Positions 1,396-57,124 of a stretch of DNA of 64,000 nucleotides are shown here, one piece after another. The stretch's first letter is position 1; every line of letters begins with the position of its first letter. Origin of the DNA: an uncultured Candidatus Poseidoniales archaeon (GTDB lineage Archaea > Thermoplasmatota > Poseidoniia > Poseidoniales > Thalassarchaeaceae); the NCBI GenBank assembly GCA_963968165.1, contig CAXAFE010000012.1, forward strand, positions 3,964 through 67,963. Direction: 5' to 3'. A program made the position numbers and the translations under genes. A model generated the notes under the pieces. That model was given only the letters and a program-made list of their open reading frames with translations. It did not search any database and had not been told where the DNA came from.

Positions 1396-2341
1396 TATCT
1401 ATTCCCCCCAATAAGTAGCCAATCAATGAATCTAAATTATCATCTGGATTCTCTATTGAAGTTATTTTCTGACCTGATTTTACGATAGTAGCAGGCAGAA
1501 TACTATGGGCTTCAGACAGATTGTTAGTCTGAATCTCCAATATGCCTTCGTCTGGAAAACGGACTCCATAAACTGGATCTGAGGTTATGAATAATCCAGC
1601 TAAATCTCTTGGATTCTCGCATTTAATTAAAATTCTATGAGGATGTTGGTCTAATAAATCTCTAATCGCATGGAGATTTCCTATTGCAAGTAATTTACCG
1701 TTGTGTAAAATTACAATTTGTTCAGTTATACGTTCAATCTCTTCCAAAATATGACTTGAAATTAGTACTGTCTTACCTTGTGAACCAAGCTCCCTAACTA
1801 CACTCATTATACTTGTTCTTGCAATTGGATCACAACCATGTAAAGGTTCATCTAAAATTATTAAATCAGGATCATGAACTAACGCATGTGCTATTTTTAC
1901 TCTCTGCCTCATGCCTTTACTATATTTTCCAATTTCTTTATGAAAAACATCTCCAAGCCCTACAAATTCCAAAACATGTTTGGACCTTTCAGTAGCTTCA
2001 TCTCTAGACATACCATGGAGCCTAGCTAATGTTGAAATGAAGTCTAAAGCTGTCATCCAATCATACATTCTTTCTGACTCGCTAACATATCCAATACGCC
2101 GATATGGAGAGGTACTTTTCCATGGATCTATGCCAAATAATCTTACTGTTCCTTGACTTGGTTTAAGACGGCCCATTAGTAATTTAAAAAGAGTAGATTT
2201 TCCTGCACCGTTTGGCCCTAAAATTCCCGTTACACCCCCTTCTATAGCCAATGATATATTATTTATTCCGATAACTTCTCCGTACCATTTAGATACATTC
2301 TCGAGTAATACCGAAGGAGTTTTGGAGTTATTTTCATTCAT
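1388..2341 (-). CDS. ABC transporter ATP-binding protein
   Basis: Walker A GPNGAGKST, signature YSKGMRQRV, Walker B LIILDEPLHG. It overlaps the upstream membrane gene by 4 nt. Confidence 0.9.
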   Translation of the reverse strand: MNENNSKTPSVLLENVSKWYGEVIGINNISLAIEGGVTGILGPNGAGKSTLFKLLMGRLKPSQGTVRLFGIDPWKSTSPYRRIGYVSESERMYDWMTALDFISTLARLHGMSRDEATERSKHVLEFVGLGDVFHKEIGKYSKGMRQRVKIAHALVHDPDLIILDEPLHGCDPIARTSIMSVVRELGSQGKTVLISSHILEEIERITEQIVILHNGKLLAIGNLHAIRDLLDQHPHRILIKCENPRDLAGLFITSDPVYGVRFPDEGILEIQTNNLSEAHSILPATIVKSGQKITSIENPDDNLDSLIGYLLGGIDNG

Positions 2342-33034: not shown

Positions 33035-35593
33035 GTGTCTAATCATTTCAGTGGTAACTCTACAGGAGATGCAATTAATACACCAAAAAAGATCCGGAGT
33101 AAACATAGATTGAGAATGATGTTGAGGCTGTCTGAAGGAGAGGAGACAGTCAGTGATTTGGCTAAGTTAGTAGGATTAAGAGTGCCTCATGCATCAGCTG
33201 AAATAAGGAAAATGAGAGAAGAAAGTTTGGTAACAAGTGACCTACCAGTAGGATCTAGGGGTGCAAAAATGAGTTTAACAGATAATGGTTGGAATGTTTT
33301 GCAAACTGATGAATGGTCTAAAGCATTAGTAGCACTTCCTCTTCCACGTGAGATTGACAAATATACTATTTTATATCGTGATAAAACAGATATATTATTT
33401 GCATTTTTGGATAAACCAAACGAACCAATGATAATGATACCCGACCGCATGCCGGGTTCCACTGGAAATGATGGGGTTTCATGGAGTTGGGCCAGCCTTA
33501 ATGAATCCGGGCCTAGGTGGTTTAATTTGGATAGTATGGAAATAAGTTTGGAATCTCCCGTAAAGCCGGATCCCCAAAGTATTGATGCATATTCCAAACG
33601 ACCTCGAATAATAGGAATAATTAGAGGAAAAGTACTGAATAATAAAGCGGCAATAACAGCCTCAGTAGGTAAGTGGTTTAGCGCTCCTAGCGATAGGCAT
33701 GGAACTCCACTAACAGAAACCTCTTACCATAGAGGAATTTGGAAATTAGGTAAGAGTCATGAAATGATTCCATTGATAAAACCAAAAAACCCCATAGTAG
33801 GAATTATGAAAGATAGTTTGTATAAATCGATGCTACTAAGAACTGCCAAGAGAAATGCTTTGGTGATAGGAGATTTGAGAGGTTTGGATTCCGGAGGGAC
33901 AATGTATCCATTAGATGTACTGGAATACTGGATAGAAATTTCTCATCCGAGAATAACTATACAAGATAGAAAGAGAAGGTTAACAGCGCTAAAGGATAAA
34001 ATAGTAAGAAATAAACGTGTTAGAGTCTCAGATTCCACTTGGAGGAAATTCAGAAAAGATTGGGGGGCAAGTTCCTTTTCTCAAGAAAAATATTCAAAAA
34101 ATATAGATATTAGGGGGCTCAACAGGATTCCAATAGAGTCCCTGATTCGCTGGTCGATAGAAAATGAGAGTCATGTACCATTGGTTCTAGAAATTAAAAA
34201 TAAAATATCTGAAAGTACACTATCTCTAATCACATCTCACTCAAATTTGAGACTGATAATACTTGAGAATATGATATCAGGATTTGAAAATTATGACATA
34301 TTAGAGATGAATAAATTTAGACCATTGCCTTGGTTAAATTTCAGAACAAAAGATGGTACATTGCCATTAAAATTAATTGAAAGTCAGTATGAAGATGAAG
34401 AATATCAAAGTAAAGTTAAACTCACTGTAACGCCATGGGAAATAAGAAATATAGAAATGAAGAGTGATTTCATACCTGAAGAGTTAAATGAAGATTATTA
34501 TTCAATGGTAAAATCATCGATATCTCAATATCCCCTTGGCGATGAAGAATGGGCAAATCAAATAGAGGCCAAATATCCTTTAGCATCATGGATAGCATCA
34601 CCCCCCTCTGGTAGATGGCCAAGGTGGCAAAGATTGAGAAATAGACTTGATTCAGAATGGTTAGCACTACTTGATCTGGATCATTTGCCAATTGAAAGAT
34701 TGGTTGAAGTGGCTAATGAAGCGCCTATTTCTGTTCTAAATATATTTTCTGAAGAAATGAAATACAAATTAAGGGAAGATTCAGATATTTTTTTACGATC
34801 TAGGCCTGCAATAGATTCCAATAGCGCGTCGCCTGGCGTTTCATGGATAGCAGGTCAATTCCTTTCCAGTGTTGCTTGGATGCCGGAAAATATACATAAT
34901 GACATTCTAGAATGGGCAATAAATGCTTGGGTTAAAAATCCACCAATTGACTCTCTTCAAGCAATTAAAGGCATTTATTGGCTTTACAACAAAGAACAAA
35001 AAAATAGAATTAAATTAGATGAGATGATGATGAAATTTAAAAATAAAAATAAAGATATATCTGATGATAATATATTAAAAATTTGGTCAGATATGATTGA
35101 TATGATAGTCGAAAAAAAGGAATTAAAAAAACAGGATTTACAATTGGTTGTAAAAAGATTACCTCCAGATTGGTGGGCGATACATGCTCAAAATTTACTG
35201 CGAAAGGCGTTGAAGAATGAGAATATGAAATGGTTATTAAGCATGGATCTACCTTGGTGTTCAACGATAATGAGAAGGAAGGGGGAGGAGGTGGATGTCC
35301 CGGGAATTTCTTCAAAAAATCACCCAGGTTGTGATTTTTCCATATATGATGATTTGAAGATGGAGATATCTAATATTGAAAATAATTCTATTCTTGATTT
35401 ATTTGAATCTTTACATTCCTCAATTAATATGGTCAAACCCAAGATAGGCAGGACTCATGAGTTAGTTGGATGGCTTGCCCAACCTATCGAAAAATGGCCT
35501 GATTTTACTCAAAAGGAAATATCAAATGGAGAAGTTGATATTATGAAGAGAATTATGCTTAGAAAGACTAGTTTTTCATATAAAAAAAATTAA
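33035..35593 (+). CDS. Large orphan protein with N-terminal ArsR/MarR-like winged HTH
   Basis: GTG start 8 nt after GGAGGA. Residues ~25-70, RLRMMLRLSEGEETVSDLAKLVGLRVPHASAEIRKMREESLV, fit an HTH. The remaining ~780 aa are W-rich and helical toward the C-terminus, with no motif I recognise. Confidence 0.6.
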   Translation: MSNHFSGNSTGDAINTPKKIRSKHRLRMMLRLSEGEETVSDLAKLVGLRVPHASAEIRKMREESLVTSDLPVGSRGAKMSLTDNGWNVLQTDEWSKALVALPLPREIDKYTILYRDKTDILFAFLDKPNEPMIMIPDRMPGSTGNDGVSWSWASLNESGPRWFNLDSMEISLESPVKPDPQSIDAYSKRPRIIGIIRGKVLNNKAAITASVGKWFSAPSDRHGTPLTETSYHRGIWKLGKSHEMIPLIKPKNPIVGIMKDSLYKSMLLRTAKRNALVIGDLRGLDSGGTMYPLDVLEYWIEISHPRITIQDRKRRLTALKDKIVRNKRVRVSDSTWRKFRKDWGASSFSQEKYSKNIDIRGLNRIPIESLIRWSIENESHVPLVLEIKNKISESTLSLITSHSNLRLIILENMISGFENYDILEMNKFRPLPWLNFRTKDGTLPLKLIESQYEDEEYQSKVKLTVTPWEIRNIEMKSDFIPEELNEDYYSMVKSSISQYPLGDEEWANQIEAKYPLASWIASPPSGRWPRWQRLRNRLDSEWLALLDLDHLPIERLVEVANEAPISVLNIFSEEMKYKLREDSDIFLRSRPAIDSNSASPGVSWIAGQFLSSVAWMPENIHNDILEWAINAWVKNPPIDSLQAIKGIYWLYNKEQKNRIKLDEMMMKFKNKNKDISDDNILKIWSDMIDMIVEKKELKKQDLQLVVKRLPPDWWAIHAQNLLRKALKNENMKWLLSMDLPWCSTIMRRKGEEVDVPGISSKNHPGCDFSIYDDLKMEISNIENNSILDLFESLHSSINMVKPKIGRTHELVGWLAQPIEKWPDFTQKEISNGEVDIMKRIMLRKTSFSYKKN

Positions 35594-35619
35594 TTAAAAC
35601 ATAAAAGGAACCGAGATGT

Positions 35620-35917
35620 TCTTTAGTGGCTATTCTGTGGGTTTATTGCCCATACGGCAACACCGTCATGACGAAATCACCACGCCGGAGGTTTAGGATG
35701 AATGACGGTACCACGTTTTGGGAAACCACTTGTCGAAGACCATAGTGACTGAAAAGAATGAGCTATGGAGCAAAACAAGTGGCCGGATTGTGATAGGTCC
35801 CCAGAGGACTGAAAGGAATGAATCAAGGGACTACCGCACAGTCCGACAGACGTCCCGGGGTGGGTCAGGCGCCAGAGTTAACACAATGAAGGTGACCGTT
35901 ACACCCCGGGGTACAGC
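35620..35917 (+). ncRNA. GC-rich structured RNA of unassigned family (divergent RNase P/SRP RNA or novel)
   Basis: GC jumps here (37/60 in 35821-35880). At least six hand-drawn helices are present, including a 9-bp CCCGGGGUG/CACCCCGGG and nested CCACUUGU/ACAAGUGG plus CCAUAG/CUAUGG. G-U pairs favour the + strand. An A/T-rich TATA-like tract at ~35586-35600 lies upstream. Ends are approximate. Confidence 0.6.
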
Positions 35918-35946
35918 AAATATAATCGAAAAATTATAGTGATAGT

Positions 35947-36987
35947 ATGCATGAACTTGGCCTAATTGGAGGGACTTTTGATAGATTTCATATCGGCCAT
36001 AAGAAATTAATAACTACTGCATTAAAGAAGTGTCAAAGATTAGAAATATGGATATTATCAGATTCTATAGCTAAGAGTAAAAATTTTAATATAAATAATT
36101 GGGATACAAGAAAAAATGAAATTATAGACAACCTTGATTCTAATCTAATAGATAGAATTGAGTTTGGAATATTAAATGATGACTATGGGCCAGCTCCATC
36201 TCATCCAAAGGCTACAGCAATAATATGTAGTGAAGAGACTTTGGAAATTTGTATAAAAATTAATAAAATAAGAAAAAATAAGTTATTGAACGCCTTGGAC
36301 ATTATTGAAGTTGGACATGCATTAGCATGGGATAAACGACCAGTTTCAAGTACAAGAATTAGAAATGGAGAAATTGATAGAAATGGTGACCATTGGAAAA
36401 TTAAATTAAAAAGGGGTGATACAATTTCTTATTGGAATGATGAATTATTAAAAATGACAAAAGAGGTTGAATATCTACTCAAGGAACCATTCGGAGAGTT
36501 GTTTGAAGGGCCGGAAGATAATCCAGAAATTGCAATGAATAAGATTATCAAGAAGTATGGTAATTTTGAATCCCAATTAATTGCAGTCGGCGATGTATCT
36601 GTATTGACTTTAGAAAAATTAAATCGGCCACCAGATATAGCAATTATAGATGGTAAAACAAAAAGAATAAAATGGATTGATTCCGAACTAATTAAACATA
36701 AAAATTATGATAGGGTGGTTTATTGCATTAATCAACCAGGGGAAATAACAAAATCATTATTTAATCAATGTAGGGAATCAATAAAATATTATATCGAAGA
36801 AGAAAAGACTAGTCTAATAATAATTGATGGAGAGGAAGATCTAGCCCCACTACTAATTCATCTCCTAGCTCCATTAAACACCATAGTTTTGTATGGGCAA
36901 CCGGACCGAGGAGTAGTTGTTAGAATCACAACAGAAGATGTAAAAAAGAGCTGTAAACAGATATTAGAAAAATTTGAGATAAAATAG
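35947..36987 (+). CDS. Fusion of phosphopantetheine adenylyltransferase (archaeal PPAT) and GTP-dependent dephospho-CoA kinase (DUF359-type)
   Basis: The N-terminal nucleotidyltransferase signature is GGTFDRFHIGH. The C-terminal half carries LIAVGDVSVLTL...PPDIAIIDGKTKR, typical of the DUF359/archaeal DPCK family. Confidence 0.7.
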   Translation: MHELGLIGGTFDRFHIGHKKLITTALKKCQRLEIWILSDSIAKSKNFNINNWDTRKNEIIDNLDSNLIDRIEFGILNDDYGPAPSHPKATAIICSEETLEICIKINKIRKNKLLNALDIIEVGHALAWDKRPVSSTRIRNGEIDRNGDHWKIKLKRGDTISYWNDELLKMTKEVEYLLKEPFGELFEGPEDNPEIAMNKIIKKYGNFESQLIAVGDVSVLTLEKLNRPPDIAIIDGKTKRIKWIDSELIKHKNYDRVVYCINQPGEITKSLFNQCRESIKYYIEEEKTSLIIIDGEEDLAPLLIHLLAPLNTIVLYGQPDRGVVVRITTEDVKKSCKQILEKFEIK

Positions 36988-37584: not shown

Positions 37585-38829
37585 CTACAATTGTGATTGA
37601 AGTTTATATTTGCCCATAGATGCTTCATTGACCAACGGTTCATGTTCACTCATCAGCGATATAGCATCGATTGCTTTTGGTATTGCTGAATTCACTTGTT
37701 TGCTTCTTCCCCCACGGCCCTTACTGACATTTCTAGCCATTATTAGTCCTAATGTATCCAGTTCGTTCAGGAGTGCTGAAACCCTCCTAGTTGTGAGTGG
37801 ATCTACTTGAATCTTGAAGCAAGCATCTGAATATGTACGATATATATCTCCAGTTATTATATTTCGTAAACCATTTTGTTCATTGAGACATACCGAAAAT
37901 AAAACTAATTTCTGATGTAATGGTAATGTTTTGAGGACTGGAGTTACTTGATCATATTCAAGTTGACTTTGTGCCATCTTAACGTGTCTAGTATCTACCT
38001 TGATCTGAGAACTTTGTTCCGCTTTTTGTACTGAAATACGTAGGAGATCTAATGCCCTTCTTGCATCGCCGTGTTCTTGTGCGGCCAGTGCGGCACATAA
38101 ATCAACTACCCCGGTTTTTAATACCTCTAATTTTAACCCAGTCTCTACTCTCTCGGAGAGTATATTTTTTATTTCTAATGCTCCATAAGGATGAAAGACA
38201 ATGTCTTCTTGACTTAATCTTGATGTCACCCTTGGATCTAATTGTTGAGTAAAATTCAAATCGTTACTTATTCCAATTATACAACATCGAGCATTTTTTA
38301 ATCTAGTGTTAAGATTTGTTAAATTATACAGCAACCCATCGCCGGCCCTCGAAACTAAATTATCGATTTCATCAAGGACTATTATGTGGACTCCTCCGAG
38401 TCTATCCATTCGATGTATTAGAGTGTCTAGGACGCGATCGGTTGGCCATCCAGTGAATGGAATTACTTGGTCTCCTCTTTCATTAAGTTGGGACGCCATA
38501 TATTGGACAACTCTGTATTTAGTATCAATACTTCTGCAATTAATTTCATAGGTGCAGACATTCTGATTTAACTCACTACCTTTCTCTCTGAGTTGCGCCA
38601 ATACATACCTTGTTACTACGGTCTTACCAGCCCCTGGTACACCATATAGTAGCATATTTGAAGGAATATGCCCTTGTAATGCATCCACTAGATTTTTTAC
38701 TAGTGAACCAACTTCGTGTTCACGGTGTGGAAGACGTGAGGGTTCGAAGCCGTGTTCGAATGCTTTTCTATCAACAAACAAGCTTTCTTGTCCGAGAATT
38801 TTTTCAAAAATATTCCCATCCATAATCAA
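37585..38829 (-). CDS. cdc6: Orc1/Cdc6 replication initiator
   Basis: AAA+ Walker A YGVPGAGKT, Walker B IIVLDEIDNL, sensor regions, and a C-terminal winged helix (...LNELDTLGLIMARNVSKGRGGRSKQ). Confidence 0.95.
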   Translation of the reverse strand: MIMDGNIFEKILGQESLFVDRKAFEHGFEPSRLPHREHEVGSLVKNLVDALQGHIPSNMLLYGVPGAGKTVVTRYVLAQLREKGSELNQNVCTYEINCRSIDTKYRVVQYMASQLNERGDQVIPFTGWPTDRVLDTLIHRMDRLGGVHIIVLDEIDNLVSRAGDGLLYNLTNLNTRLKNARCCIIGISNDLNFTQQLDPRVTSRLSQEDIVFHPYGALEIKNILSERVETGLKLEVLKTGVVDLCAALAAQEHGDARRALDLLRISVQKAEQSSQIKVDTRHVKMAQSQLEYDQVTPVLKTLPLHQKLVLFSVCLNEQNGLRNIITGDIYRTYSDACFKIQVDPLTTRRVSALLNELDTLGLIMARNVSKGRGGRSKQVNSAIPKAIDAISLMSEHEPLVNEASMGKYKLQSQL

Positions 38830-49828: not shown

Positions 49829-49903
49829 GCGCCTGTGGTGAAGGGGTTATCACCTGAGGTTTCCAACCTCATGTCCTGGGTTCAAATCCCAGCGGGCGCA
49901 CCA
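49829..49903 (+). tRNA. tRNA-Gly: tRNA-Gly (anticodon UCC), CCA encoded
   Basis: Manual cloverleaf: acceptor GCGCCUG/CGGGCGC, D stem GUGA/UCAC, anticodon stem UGAGG/CCUCA with loop UUUCCAA, T arm CUGGG-UUCAAAU-CCCAG, discriminator A plus CCA. A T-run follows at ~49916. Confidence 0.95.
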
Positions 49904-55407: not shown

Positions 55408-56418
55408 GTGAATGTGCGATTATACTTTGATTGGAGGTTAGCCCGTATTTTAGATGAAAATGATAATATAATCGACCAAATTAATTGGAATGCTGAGAAA
55501 AGTGTATCTTCTGTTGCTAAAAGGTTATTTGATATAAAAAAAGATAGATTTACTAATGAAGCTAGAATTTTATATGATAGATTTGACGAAGTAAATATAC
55601 TTCAATATGGCCATTTGAATGATCCTGATTGGCCAGAATATACTGAAGAAGAAAGAGTTTTATTTGAATCGGCGGTTTTGAGTATGGTAAAATTTGAGGT
55701 TGCTGAGTCTGCAGGGAATATGGATAGAAGATTGGATATGTTAGTTGCATCTACAAAGGAGATGAGATCTTCATGGACAACAAGTGAATCTCGTTGCATA
55801 GAATGGATTGGTTTATTTTTGACAGAATTGAATCTGGACATTGATAGAAATAAAATAATTAAAACAATAGTCTCATCTAACTCATTAAAAGAAGCTGCGG
55901 ATAAATTAGATACTTCAATATCCAAGTATGAACCATCAGATAATGAATGGCCATCTCTAAAAAGTCATTGTAAATCAGTAGTTGAGTTAGATATTAGAAT
56001 AAGAAATAATGAGGAAGCAATTAGAATTATGGCATTTGATTATGTTCCATCTTTGTCTGCACTATTAGGGCCATTAAGTGCTGCAAAGCTTATTTGTTTA
56101 GCAGGCAGTAGGGAAAGGTTGGCAAGAATGCCATCAGGATCACTGCAAGTCTTAGGTGCTCATGCCGCAATGGCCGCTCATAGAAATGGAGCACCTCCTC
56201 CCAAGCATGGGTCAGTTTTATTTTCAATCCCACAAATTAGTAAGTCTCCCAGATGGGTGAGAGGCAAAATAGCTAGATTTATAGCTGGTAAAGCAAGTAT
56301 TGCTACAAGAATAGACCATTTTAATGGACAACAATGGGGAGAAAATGAGGTCTCTAAAATCTATGATGATGTATCTAAAATAATTGATAAATTCCCAAAG
56401 CCACCCAGAAGGAAATGA
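55408..56418 (+). CDS. nop5: Nop5 (Nop56/58) C/D box sRNP core protein
   Basis: GTG start. The C-terminal Nop domain is RLARMPSGSLQVLGAHAAMAAH...PKHG...RGKIARFIAGKASIATRID. Confidence 0.85.
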   Translation: MNVRLYFDWRLARILDENDNIIDQINWNAEKSVSSVAKRLFDIKKDRFTNEARILYDRFDEVNILQYGHLNDPDWPEYTEEERVLFESAVLSMVKFEVAESAGNMDRRLDMLVASTKEMRSSWTTSESRCIEWIGLFLTELNLDIDRNKIIKTIVSSNSLKEAADKLDTSISKYEPSDNEWPSLKSHCKSVVELDIRIRNNEEAIRIMAFDYVPSLSALLGPLSAAKLICLAGSRERLARMPSGSLQVLGAHAAMAAHRNGAPPPKHGSVLFSIPQISKSPRWVRGKIARFIAGKASIATRIDHFNGQQWGENEVSKIYDDVSKIIDKFPKPPRRK

Positions 56419-56422
56419 TTTA

Positions 56423-57124
56423 ATGAAGAGAAAAACACTATCTCTGGGATGGGGCATCAGACGCGAAGGAAGAAATATATGGACAAGAAATGCAGTTAAG
56501 GGAGTTTCTGTTCGAAAGGAAAGACGGAAAAGGGATGGAAAGAATGAGTGGAGATATTGGGATCCAACTAAGTCTAAGGTTGCTGCATCACTGCACAGAA
56601 CAAAAAGGAATCCAATTCATTTATTACCGAAAATAGGACAAAGTTGCTTATATCTTGGTGCATCAATAGGAGGGACACTTAGTCATATTCATGATTGTGT
56701 ATGTGGTTCGGGAAATCATCACAAAGGGAACATAGTAGCGGTCGATATATCTCCAAGAATGATGAGAGACCTCGTTCAATTGTGCCATAGAAGGCCTGGG
56801 ATAATTCCGTTATTGGCAGATGCAAGAAAAGTTGAAGGTTTATCTCCATTCATAAATAAGAAGGTAGATTGGCTACACCAAGATTTGAGTATTGCTGATC
56901 AGGCGAAGAATTTCGTGAAAATATCGAATGTTTTTCTTAAATCTGGAGGGGTCGGCCTCCTCAGTCTAAAGGGCGATAGTGAAAGAATATCAGAGGGAGA
57001 TTTAGAAATTAGATTTCAAAATGCAGAAAGAGTATTAGAAGGTTCAAATTTGGAGATAATAGAAAGAATAGATCTAAAAGGTTTGGAGGAGAATCACATC
57101 TTGTTTCATTGTATAATGAAATAA
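56423..57124 (+). CDS. flpA: Fibrillarin rRNA/tRNA 2'-O-methyltransferase
   Basis: I prefer ATG at 56423, 5 nt after the nop5 stop. SAM-binding CLYLGASIGGTLSHIHD, followed by AVDISPRMMRDL, IIPLLADAR and VDWLHQDLS. Confidence 0.85.
   Translation: MKRKTLSLGWGIRREGRNIWTRNAVKGVSVRKERRKRDGKNEWRYWDPTKSKVAASLHRTKRNPIHLLPKIGQSCLYLGASIGGTLSHIHDCVCGSGNHHKGNIVAVDISPRMMRDLVQLCHRRPGIIPLLADARKVEGLSPFINKKVDWLHQDLSIADQAKNFVKISNVFLKSGGVGLLSLKGDSERISEGDLEIRFQNAERVLEGSNLEIIERIDLKGLEENHILFHCIMK

What the first reader, a model, noticed from the sequence alone, without database searches (positions are those of the whole stretch)
35600..35946. Unassigned ~300-nt GC-rich multi-helix RNA with a duplicated GACUGAAARGAAUGA loop motif
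No credible CDS lies between 35593 and 35947; the only ORF is 73 aa with odd composition. G+C rises sharply here (37/60 in 35821-35880) in an AT-rich window.
Helices I can pair by hand:
- GUGGG/CCCAU (35637-41 with 35649-53)
- ACCGUCAU/AUGACGGU (35662-69 with 35702-09)
- CCACUUGU/ACAAGUGG (35726-33 with 35775-82), enclosing CCAUAG/CUAUGG (35740-45 with 35763-68)
- GGUCCC/GGGACU (35796-801 with 35827-32)
- CCCGGGGUG/CACCCCGGG (35854-62 with 35902-10), enclosing GGUCA/UGACC
Several G-U pairs would be A-C on the other strand, which favours the + strand. Two hairpin loops carry a 15-nt block identical at 14/15 positions (35747-61 and 35807-21). The block contains CUGA...AAUGA, a purine-rich GA-type sequence reminiscent of kink-turn or K-loop L7Ae sites. 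AAUGA recurs four times at 56-69-nt spacing.
By eye I cannot find the universal RNase P blocks (GAGGAAAGUCC, ACAGAAnCCGGCUUA); only GGGGUACAGCAAAU is reminiscent. I also cannot find the SRP helix-8 motif. So this is either a very divergent RNase P or SRP RNA, or a new RNP or cis-regulatory RNA directly 5' of a CoA-biosynthesis gene.
Basis: seen in the sequence. Interest (0 to 1): 0.75.

Follow-up and report, generated by a model that had tools for sequence, protein, structure and literature searches.

The report
Four-hairpin archaeal H/ACA pseudouridylation guide RNA
The GC-rich intergenic stretch is a real, conserved ~305-nt non-coding RNA of Marine Group II archaea that is most likely a multi-hairpin H/ACA guide RNA directing pseudouridine formation in 23S rRNA, so it is a new example of a known RNA class, not a divergent RNase P or SRP RNA.

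Summary
Window 35609-35917 (+) is a structured RNA gene. It lies directly upstream of the PPAT/DUF359 gene in 79 of 80 Marine Group IIb genomes. Compensatory base changes support the helices strongly, and Rfam 15 has no match.

The interpretation needs revising. The RNA is a linear chain of four hairpins with no long-range helices and no RNase P or SRP core motifs. Each hairpin has a lower stem, an invariant internal loop, a 6-8 bp upper stem, a canonical K-turn and a small cap. The dimensions match published rules for archaeal H/ACA guides. An invariant ACA follows hairpins 3 and 4.

The pocket of hairpin 4 is perfectly complementary (11 Watson-Crick pairs, 0 of 1000 shuffles) to the helix-69 loop of an archaeal 23S rRNA. 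This places the U1915 equivalent, a conserved H/ACA-made pseudouridine, in the unpaired position. Hairpin 3 fits the A loop (2-16 of 1000 shuffles). Hairpins 1 and 2 lack an ANA box and have no identified target.

Verdict: a new lineage-specific, unusually large (four-module) H/ACA sRNA. The Marine Group II 23S sequence could not be obtained, so the targets remain inferred.

The parts
35609..35917 (+). Whole sRNA gene (about 305 nt): 5' leader, four K-turn hairpins and a 3' ACA box.
   Evidence: An nhmmer/HMM match covers 35609-35915. Homologues lie upstream of PPAT in 79 of 80 loci. Conservation starts at AACCG and ends at GGGG(Y)ACA(C). The ends are inferred, not mapped.
35609..35648 (+). 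5' leader. It has a conserved ACCG-N4-GUUC(U/A)U block followed by a variable ~25-nt segment. Function unknown.
   Evidence: Alignment. The proposed small hairpin 35609-12/35617-20 shows no compensatory change (helix 1).
35649..35722 (+). Hairpin A, an H/ACA-like module without a conserved ANA box.
- Lower stem: 35649-56 / 35714-22.
- Pocket: GCAAC 35657-61 / ACCA 35710-13.
- Upper stem: 35662-69 / 35702-09.
- K-turn: G·A pairs 35670-71 with 35700-01, bulge GAU 35697-99.
- Conserved cap: 35672-96, containing the invariant GCCGGAGG.
   Evidence: Covariation is seen in the lower stem (columns 49/119, 52/113, 53/112) and the upper stem (5 of 8 pairs). The pocket is invariant in 74 of 74 sequences. 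Only this window has AAA after the stem.
35726..35782 (+). Hairpin B, an H/ACA-like module with no ANA box.
- Lower stem: 35726-33 / 35775-82.
- Pocket: CGAAGA 35734-39 / AGCAAA 35769-74.
- Upper stem: 35740-45 / 35763-68.
- K-turn: GA 35747-48 with GA 35760-61, bulge AAU 35757-59.
- C-stem CU/AG with GAAA tetraloop: 35749-56.
   Evidence: 6 of 8 lower-stem pairs and 4 of 6 upper-stem pairs show compensatory changes. In other genomes the cap is a longer C-stem that gives a textbook K-turn, GA-CC...GG-AAU-GA.
35784..35848 (+). Hairpin C with its ACA box.
- Lower stem: 35784-92 / 35837-45.
- Pocket: AUAGGU 35793-98 / ACUACCG 35830-36.
- Upper stem: 35799-806 / 35822-29.
- K-turn: GA 35807-08 with GA 35820-21, bulge AAU 35817-19.
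- Cap: CU-GAAA-GG 35809-16.
- ACA: 35846-48.
   Evidence: 5 of 9 lower-stem pairs covary, while the AGGU and ACUACC segments never do (helix 10). ACA is invariant. The best complementarity in H. marismortui rRNA is the A loop, GGUUGU-UC-GCCUAU, reached by 16 of 1000 shuffles (2 of 1000 for the ACAACC variant).
35853..35915 (+). Hairpin D with the 3'-terminal ACA box.
- Lower stem: 35853-62 / 35902-11.
- 5' guide: GGGUCA 35862-67 (G35862 can also close the lower stem).
- 3' guide: GUUAC 35898-902.
- Upper stem: GGCGCC 35868-73 / GGUG(A)CC 35891-97.
- K-turn: GA 35875-76 with GA 35888-89, bulge AAU 35885-87.
- ACA: 35913-15.
   Evidence: Covariation is seen in both stems. Both guide strands and the ACA are invariant in 74 of 74 sequences. 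The distance to ACA is 15 nt, and 9 nt separate the base of the upper stem from the distal G·A (counted). The pocket makes 11 Watson-Crick pairs with H69, GUAAC-UA-UGACCC, of H. marismortui 23S; this match is unique and no shuffle reaches it (0 of 1000).
35947..36987 (+). Downstream neighbour, not part of the RNA: a fusion of phosphopantetheine adenylyltransferase-like and DUF359 domains. An A/T-rich TATA-like AAATATAA at 35918-25 sits about 25 nt before the ATG, which suggests a separate, leaderless mRNA.
   Evidence: Pfam PF01467 plus PF04019. The promoter reading is inferred from the sequence.

Best explanation
The locus encodes a single ~305-nt box H/ACA-type small RNA of Marine Group II (Thalassarchaeaceae) archaea, built from four tandem hairpin modules.

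Inferred mechanism, from the established archaeal H/ACA RNP:
- L7Ae binds the K-turn at the top of each module.
- Cbf5-Nop10(-Gar1) docks on the upper stem, the pocket and the lower stem.
- For modules C and D, the PUA domain of Cbf5 reads the ACA trinucleotide.
- The two strands of the internal loop pair with rRNA on either side of an unpaired U-N, and Cbf5 isomerises that U to pseudouridine.

Module D is predicted to guide the helix-69 loop uridine of 23S rRNA (E. coli U1915 equivalent, perhaps also U1917). Module C is predicted to guide an A-loop uridine (E. coli U2555 or U2554). Modules A and B have the same protein-binding geometry and invariant loops, but they lack an ANA box and have no identified target. 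They are orphan or atypical guide modules.

Shown here: conservation, covariation, K-turn sequence signatures, module dimensions, ACA boxes, and complementarity to an archaeal (haloarchaeal) 23S rRNA.

Inferred, not shown: expression and transcript ends, protein binding, the Marine Group II 23S sequence, and actual pseudouridylation.
For: 1. Real and conserved. The RNA lies upstream of PPAT in 79 of 80 genomes, with nhmmer E-values from 1e-11 (loci cut at a contig end) to 1e-74 for 78 of them, while the protein is only 43-60% identical.
2. Structure. 89% of cells are paired, 31 pairs have compensatory changes, 0 of 500 shuffles reach the observed values, and slid controls give 35-49% pairing.
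3. Four canonical K-turns. Each has tandem G·A pairs, a 3-nt bulge ending in R-U and a Watson-Crick C-stem, and each sits apically in a hairpin.
4. Dimensions match published archaeal H/ACA rules. Those rules are: H1 >= 7 bp, H2 5-6 bp, ANA 14-15 (15±1) nt from the target U, and 9-10 nt from the base of P2 to the distal G·A (PMC2377435; PMC7075261). Here the lower stems are 8-10 bp, the P2-base-to-G·A distances are 10, 9, 10 and 9 nt, and the 3' pocket strand plus lower stem measures 13, 14, 16 and 14(+1) nt (counted).
5. ACA is invariant after hairpins C and D, and the conserved sequence ends there.
6. Pocket strands are invariant while the stems covary.
7. The hairpin D pocket makes 11 contiguous-arm Watson-Crick pairs with GUAAC-UA-UGACCC in H69 of H. 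marismortui 23S. This is the only zero-mismatch site in the operon, and no shuffle reaches it (0 of 1000). That uridine is H/ACA-guided in Haloferax (sR-h45 SL2) and in Pyrococcus (Pab40 motif 3).
8. The best site for hairpin C is the A loop, reached by 16 of 1000 shuffles (window type) and 2 of 1000 (ACAACC type). This position was once proposed as the target of Afu4 motif 2 (plus my numbering offset).
Against: - The Marine Group II 23S rRNA could not be retrieved. It is not linked to the 16S gene, so target complementarity was tested only on Haloarcula and E. coli rRNA. E. coli H69 fits only the 3' guide.
- Hairpins A and B have no conserved ANA box. They show no convincing target in H. marismortui rRNA, E. 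coli rRNA or 77 Marine Group II 16S sequences.
- The hairpin D pocket strands are short (5-6 and 4-5 nt). The hairpin C 3' guide has a U·U mismatch opposite U2552 in most genomes, and U2555 is not a documented pseudouridine to my knowledge.
- No archaeal H/ACA family in Rfam matches.
- There are no expression or protein-binding data.
- Known archaeal H/ACA sRNAs have one to three hairpins, not four.
Confidence: 0.82

Rival explanations
1. It is a non-guide L7Ae/Cbf5-type RNP RNA. On this reading the H/ACA-like modules mainly give stability or a scaffold, or act as an rRNA-folding or processing chaperone (as snR30/U17 or the H/ACA domain of telomerase RNA do in eukaryotes), and the H69 match is fortuitous or secondary. 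A weaker form: only the 5' half (hairpins A and B) has such a non-modifying role.
For: Hairpins A and B have invariant loops but no ANA box and no rRNA target in the sequences tested. The cap of hairpin A (GCCGGAGG) and the 5' block ACCG..GUUC are conserved without explanation. The four-module size exceeds that of known archaeal guides.
Against: Hairpin D meets every structural rule for a guide and makes a perfect 11-bp match to a site known to be H/ACA-modified in other archaea (0 of 1000 shuffles). Hairpin C also has a significant match in the functional core.
Confidence: 0.1
2. It is a highly divergent RNase P RNA, or an SRP RNA, of Marine Group II archaea.
For: The length of about 300 nt fits. 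Archaeal RNase P RNAs also carry L7Ae K-turns (my background knowledge). No RNase P or SRP RNA was found elsewhere in the window.
Against: No Rfam hit to RNase P or SRP appears even at E <= 10, and none in 20 homologues at gathering score. GAGGAAAGUCC, ACAGAA..GGCUUA and the helix-8 GGAA/AGCA motif are absent. The molecule is a string of local hairpins, with no well-supported long-range helix that could be P1, P2, P4 or helix 5. The ACAGACGUCCCGG stretch that resembles CR-V is in fact the ACA box plus the 5' strand of a local, covarying hairpin.
Confidence: 0.02
3. It is a cis-regulatory 5' leader (riboswitch-like) of the downstream PPAT/DUF359 CoA-biosynthesis gene.
For: The RNA keeps a strictly conserved position and orientation 20-45 nt upstream of the gene in 79 of 80 genomes.
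Against: Conservation stops at the ACA box. Oligo-T follows in 21 of 71 loci, and in this window a TATA-like element sits between the RNA and the ATG. The architecture is four K-turn protein-binding modules, not a ligand pocket. The loops are complementary to 23S rRNA. The adjacency may simply reflect conserved local gene order within one family; that order was not tested here.
Confidence: 0.03

Closest known systems
Afu-4 / Pf7 / Pab40 / Pho40 three-motif H/ACA sRNA of Archaeoglobus and Thermococcales
   Same: It is a multi-hairpin archaeal H/ACA guide with a K-turn in every hairpin. Its last motif guides the conserved H69 pseudouridine (Pab 2016), and the preceding motifs act in domain V of 23S rRNA (PMC2377435). 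Here hairpin D fits H69. Hairpin C fits the A loop, E. coli U2555, which equals Pab 2647 by my offset of 92. That is the position once proposed for Afu4 motif 2. Hairpin B has a weak lead to the 2496 region, where Pab40 motif 1 acts.
   Different: This RNA has four hairpins instead of three and a ~40-nt 5' leader. The two 5' hairpins lack ANA. Rfam detects no sequence similarity, and I could not compare the sequences directly. Homology as opposed to convergence is untested.
Haloferax volcanii sR-h45 (double stem-loop H/ACA sRNA)
   Same: The 3' stem-loop with a terminal ACA guides the H69 uridines 1940/1942, and the 5' stem-loop guides a domain V uridine. K-turns lie in the upper stems (PMC7075261). 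The unpaired UAUG/UAUA context here would also allow a dual U1915/U1917 modification.
   Different: sR-h45 has two stem-loops about 56 nt apart, with an H box. Its 5' stem-loop targets the E. coli 2586 equivalent, which hairpin C fits only poorly (rank 33-82 of 994).
Atypical H/ACA-like sRNAs of Pyrobaculum (Bernick et al. 2012, as cited in PMC7991803)
   Same: They set a precedent for archaeal pseudouridine-guide-like RNAs that lack canonical elements such as the ACA box, as hairpins A and B do here.
   Different: From my own knowledge, the Pyrobaculum RNAs are short single hairpins that also lack the lower stem. Hairpins A and B keep a covarying lower stem of normal length.
Archaeal RNase P RNA (types A, M and T)
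   Same: It has a similar size, and L7Ae-binding K-turns occur in some helices (my background knowledge).
   Different: RNase P has universal CR-I to CR-V blocks, a P4 pseudoknot and P1/P2 closure of the two ends. None of these is present here.

Membership tests
Archaeal box H/ACA guide sRNA | A hairpin with a lower stem of at least 7 bp, an internal loop (pocket) and an upper stem. | tested here: met
   All four hairpins meet this. Lower stems are 8-10 bp and upper stems 6-8 bp, both with compensatory changes. The rule comes from PMC2377435. The 3' pocket strands of A and D (4-5 nt) are at or below the 5-11 nt used in that descriptor.
Archaeal box H/ACA guide sRNA | A K-turn or K-loop in the upper stem, with the distal G·A 9-10 nt from the base of P2 (H2 of 5-6 bp). 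| tested here: met
   Four canonical K-turns are present. The distances are 10, 9, 10 and 9 nt for A to D, counted. For C this holds only under the pocket model; with GGUCCC/GGGACU paired it would be 13. Rules.
Archaeal box H/ACA guide sRNA | An ANA (usually ACA) trinucleotide 3' of the lower stem, 14-16 nt from the target position. | tested here: inconclusive
   Met for C (ACA 35846-48, 16 nt) and D (ACA 35913-15, 15 nt), and invariant in 74 sequences. Not met for B (CCG follows). For A, only this window has AAA; most genomes have UGA, UAG or UCA.
Archaeal box H/ACA guide sRNA | Bipartite pocket complementarity (at least 8 bp) to rRNA or tRNA flanking an unpaired U-N. | tested here: inconclusive
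   D: 11 of 11 Watson-Crick pairs to H69 of H. marismortui 23S, 0 of 1000 shuffles. C: score 10.5-11 of 12 to the A loop, 16 and 2 of 1000 shuffles. A and B: nothing found in H. marismortui rRNA, E. coli rRNA or Marine Group II 16S. The organism's own 23S rRNA was not available.
Archaeal box H/ACA guide sRNA | Assembly with L7Ae, Cbf5, Nop10 and Gar1, and RNA-dependent pseudouridine formation. | not testable with these tools
   This needs biochemistry or pseudouridine mapping. I did not check whether the four protein genes are present in these genomes.
Rfam archaeal H/ACA sequence families (for example the Pyrococcus Hgc families) | A covariance-model match. | tested here: not met
   No hit at gathering score, and none at E <= 10 on 35500-36050. 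No hit in 20 homologous loci.
RNase P RNA | Universal conserved regions (GAGGAAAGUCC, ACAGAA..GGCUUA), the P4 long-range helix, and P1 pairing of the two ends. | tested here: not met
   The motifs are absent from the RNA. There is no well-supported long-range helix and no Rfam hit.
SRP RNA (archaeal 7S) | A long helix 5 joining the two ends, and helix 8 with a GNAR tetraloop and conserved symmetric and asymmetric loops. | tested here: not met
   There is no end-to-end helix. The GGUCAGG that resembles helix 8 is the 5' guide plus the covarying upper stem of hairpin D. No Rfam hit.

The most novel reading that the evidence does not exclude
The two 5' modules (hairpins A and B) may be ANA-less H/ACA-type modules with invariant orphan pockets that act on something other than the canonical rRNA sites. 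Candidates are Marine Group II-specific 23S positions, tRNA or mRNA, or a non-modifying role as an rRNA-folding chaperone. If so, this would be the first four-module archaeal H/ACA RNP, combining canonical and atypical modules on one scaffold.
Probability: 0.2. Interest if true: 0.5.

Novelty: new member of a known kind. Interest (0 to 1): 0.35.

Why it matters
- I found no description of an H/ACA guide RNA for Marine Group II (Poseidoniales), one of the most abundant archaeal groups in the surface ocean, and Rfam has no model that finds this one.
- A covariance model built from the 74 sequences would let annotators stop leaving this locus blank or mis-calling the 73-aa ORF.
- It predicts that these uncultivated archaea keep the near-universal helix-69 pseudouridine, and possibly an A-loop one, through RNA guidance.
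- It extends the known size range of archaeal H/ACA sRNAs from three modules to four.
- Its two ANA-less modules bear on the debated need for the ACA box.
- It does not open a new class of biology.

Tried and rejected
- Rfam at gathering and permissive thresholds, on the window and on 20 homologous loci: nothing relevant.
- First genome scan with the single PPAT protein: no relatives found. It worked only with an alignment.
- Search for RNase P and SRP motifs in all 1.35 Mb held. The one GAGGAAAGUCC (L078) lies antisense inside a 694-aa ORF and has no Rfam support. Rejected as chance.
- Naive pairwise covariation scan: swamped by phylogenetic signal. A stacked-helix version replaced it.
- Attempts to obtain Marine Group II 23S rRNA:
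  - An Eury806-probe scan gave 120 loci carrying 16S, but none has a 23S gene nearby.
  - Walking from the window ends showed that the source contig is only ~69 kb and carries no rRNA.
  - A viral-contig scan returned one eukaryotic LSU fragment.
  - I considered searching for spurious ORFs translated from 23S but dropped it as a costly long shot.
- Target searches for hairpins A and B in Marine Group II 16S and its flanks, H. marismortui rRNA and E. coli rRNA: nothing above chance. There is only a weak energy-based lead for B at the 2496 region.
- Reading hairpin C as a guide for the E. coli 2586 equivalent (the sR-h45 SL1 site): poor fit.
- The 5' hairpin 35609-20: no covariation.
- Literature search for RNase P in Poseidoniales: nothing relevant.
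Full report
**What is there.** Window 35594-35946 holds no credible coding sequence, only a 73-aa (+) and a 49-aa (-) ORF. G+C rises to 0.47-0.52, against about 0.26-0.35 in the flanks. The 15-nt blocks at 35747-61 and 35807-21 are 14/15 identical. Both strands fold better than shuffles, with z = -3.9 on + and -3.4 on -, so energy alone does not fix the strand. Rfam 15 finds only a tRNA-Gly in the window. A permissive scan of 35500-36050 finds nothing meaningful.

**Organism and conservation.** The downstream gene (35947-36987) is a fusion of a cytidylyltransferase-like (PPAT) domain and DUF359. Its closest relatives are named Marine Group II / Thalassarchaeaceae. A profile of this protein retrieved 80 species-representative loci. 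nhmmer with the window RNA found a homologue directly upstream of the gene, on the same strand, in 79 of them. E-values run from 1e-11 for loci cut at a contig end (one end fragment 6e-4) to 1e-74, and the one locus without a hit has only 79 nt of upstream sequence. The proteins are only 43-60% identical, so the RNA is under strong constraint. None of 20 homologous loci has an Rfam hit. There is one copy in the window and none in 120 unrelated Marine Group II loci.

**Structure.** In an alignment of 74 distinct sequences, conservation begins at AACCG (35609) and ends at GGGG(Y)ACA(C) (about 35916). On my curated structure:
- 89% of cells are paired.
- 31 pairs carry compensatory changes.
- No shuffle of 500 reaches the observed values.
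- Sliding the 3' partners drops pairing to 35-49%.

Two are not: GUGGG/CCCAU and GGUCA/UGACC. CCC 35649-51 pairs instead with GGG 35720-22, with covariation CCCAA/UUGGG <-> CCCGUG/CACGGG. The helix in the last hairpin is GGCGCC/GGUG(A)CC. A scan for stacked, covarying long-range helices found only the local ones with solid support; its only long-range candidates were a 5-bp and two 4-bp pairings with a single covarying pair each. The molecule is therefore a linear chain: a ~40-nt 5' leader followed by four hairpins (A 35649-722, B 35726-82, C 35784-845, D 35853-911).

**The repeated motif is a K-turn.** Each hairpin carries, above its upper stem:
- GA on the 5' strand;
- a short Watson-Crick C-stem with a cap;
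- a 3-nt bulge ending in R-U;
- GA on the 3' strand.

This is the standard K-turn, with the RUGA signature of L7Ae sites. In this window the C-stems of B and C are only 2 bp long and are closed by GAAA, which produces the near-identical 15-mers. In other genomes the C-stems are longer and differ in sequence (for example GA-CC..GG-AAU-GA), and only GA...RUGA is conserved.

**Module geometry.** Published rules for archaeal H/ACA motifs are as follows (PMC2377435; PMC7075261):
- lower stem of at least 7 bp;
- upper stem of 5-6 bp, with at most one bulge;
- K-turn or K-loop;
- ANA 14-15 (15±1) nt from the target uridine;
- 9-10 nt from the base of the upper stem to the distal G·A.

Counting on the sequence gives:
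- lower stems of 8-10 bp;
- distances from the base of the upper stem to the distal G·A of 10, 9, 10 and 9 nt;
- a 3' pocket strand plus lower stem of 13, 14, 16 and 14(+1 spacer) nt for A to D.

ACA follows hairpin C immediately (35846-48). It follows hairpin D after one nucleotide (35913-15), at the end of the conserved region. Both ACAs are invariant. Oligo-T follows in 21 of 71 loci. The internal-loop strands are invariant while the stems covary. In hairpin C the segments AGGU and ACUACC can pair with each other but never covary (helix 10), which is what guide sequence would look like.

**Targets.** I could not obtain a Marine Group II 23S rRNA. A scan with the Eury806 16S probe returned 120 Marine Group II 16S loci, but none contains a 23S gene. 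None of the 77 usable 16S sequences has a site for any pocket. I therefore used the Haloarcula marismortui rRNA operon (L209) and E. coli rRNA (L201).

- **Hairpin D.** The pocket (5' guide GGGUCA, 3' guide GUUAC) is perfectly complementary, with 11 Watson-Crick pairs, to GUAAC-UA-UGACCC in the loop of helix 69. This is the only zero-mismatch site in 5.1 kb, and no dinucleotide shuffle of 1000 does as well. The unpaired U aligns with E. coli U1915. If I call it H. marismortui 1956, as I remember the numbering, position 2621 falls on the U of GGGUUUAGACC, which supports that numbering. This uridine is one of the most conserved pseudouridines. It is made by H/ACA RNPs in Haloferax (sR-h45 SL2) and, in vitro, in Pyrococcus (Pab40 motif 3). 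E. coli H69 (GUAACUAUAACGG) fits only the 3' guide.
- **Hairpin C.** Read as a pocket (AUAGGU / ACUACCG), its best site is the A loop, GGUUGU-UC-GCCUAU, with the unpaired U at E. coli 2555 (or 2554 if the terminal A-U pair opens). 16 of 1000 shuffles reach this score. For the ACAACC/AUGGGU variant found in 12 genomes, which removes the single U·U mismatch, only 2 of 1000 do. With the offset of 92 that I derive from the Pab35 targets, this is P. abyssi 2647. That is the position originally proposed for Afu4 motif 2 and later questioned.
- **Hairpins A and B.** They have no site above chance. An energy scan only ranks the peptidyl-transferase-centre segment UUGCUACCUCGAUG third to seventh of 994 uridines for hairpin B. 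I treat this as a weak lead.

**Interpretation.** The best explanation is a four-module box H/ACA guide sRNA. The 3' half (C and D) meets the structural definition. It has significant complementarity to two functional-centre sites of an archaeal 23S rRNA, one of which is a documented H/ACA target elsewhere. The 5' half (A and B) has the same protein-binding geometry and invariant loops, but no conserved ANA box and no known target.

ANA-less function has precedent. A single stem-loop guide can work without ACA under typical pairing (abstract of PMC7075261). Atypical H/ACA-like RNAs also exist in Pyrobaculum (cited in PMC7991803). Known archaeal H/ACA sRNAs have one to three hairpins, so four is unusual. 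The order of putative targets resembles that of the three-motif Afu4/Pf7/Pab40 family: B possibly the 2496 region, C domain V, D H69. Homology is untested.

**Rivals.**
- RNase P and SRP RNA fail every defining feature I could test.
- A cis-regulatory leader is unlikely, given the terminal ACA, the oligo-T runs, a TATA-like element between the RNA and the ATG, and the rRNA complementarity. The strict synteny is still worth noting.
- A non-guide scaffold or chaperone role remains possible, mainly for the 5' half.

**Limits.**
- There are no expression, end-mapping, protein-binding or modification data.
- Targets are inferred from a haloarchaeal 23S sequence.
- The pocket strands of D are short.
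- U2555 is not a documented pseudouridine to my knowledge.
- I did not check for the cbf5, nop10, gar1 and L7Ae genes.

**Verdict.** This is a genuine, well-supported new RNA family. It is a lineage-specific member of a known class, not a divergent RNase P or SRP RNA and not a new kind of RNP. Interest is moderate to low (0.35). The most novel reading still open concerns the two ANA-less orphan modules.

Noticed in passing
window 55408-57124 (+): Adjacent genes for Nop5/Nop56-58 (PF01798) and fibrillarin (PF01269), the core proteins of the box C/D methylation-guide RNP. The Pfam calls come from the matching ENA contig. So the other K-turn/L7Ae guide system is encoded about 20 kb from this RNA.
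   Followed up: partly
L081-L200 (120 metagenome loci carrying the Marine Group II 16S probe site): None of the 120 loci has a 23S rRNA motif within the several kb held on either side of the 16S gene. The 16S and 23S genes therefore appear to be unlinked in Marine Group II, as in Thermoplasmatales.
   Followed up: partly
window 37585-38829 (-): An Orc1/Cdc6 replication-initiator gene (Cdc6_C, Cdc6_lid and AAA domains) lies 1.7 kb downstream of the RNA. A replication origin may be nearby; I did not examine the adjacent intergenic regions.
   Followed up: no
window 33035-35593 (+): The upstream neighbour is an 852-aa protein. Its only Pfam match is an N-terminal ArsR-type HTH (residues 23-67, E = 3e-5); the remaining ~780 residues have no match. 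A 694-aa ORF occupies the same position in L078.
   Followed up: no
window 35672-35696 and 35611-35623: Two conserved elements are not explained by the H/ACA model. One is the cap of hairpin A, with the invariant GCCGGAGG. The other is the 5' block ACCG-N4-GUUC(U/A)U, whose putative hairpin shows no covariation.
   Followed up: partly
L071, L080, L068 (hairpin B cap); L057-type loci (hairpin C cap): Lineage-specific insertions extend the K-turn C-stems: about 28 nt in hairpin B of three genomes, and 12 nt (ACGGAAGAGACC) in hairpin C of 11 genomes. Everything below the K-turn is unchanged.
   Followed up: no
L078 about 1780-1817 (- strand): An exact GAGGAAAGUCCGGG (RNase P CR-I-like) string occurs antisense inside a 694-aa ORF just upstream of the RNA. 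It has no Rfam support and I judged it a chance match.
   Followed up: yes
window 49829-49903 (+): tRNA-Gly(UCC), the only Rfam or ARAGORN hit in the 64-kb window.
   Followed up: no
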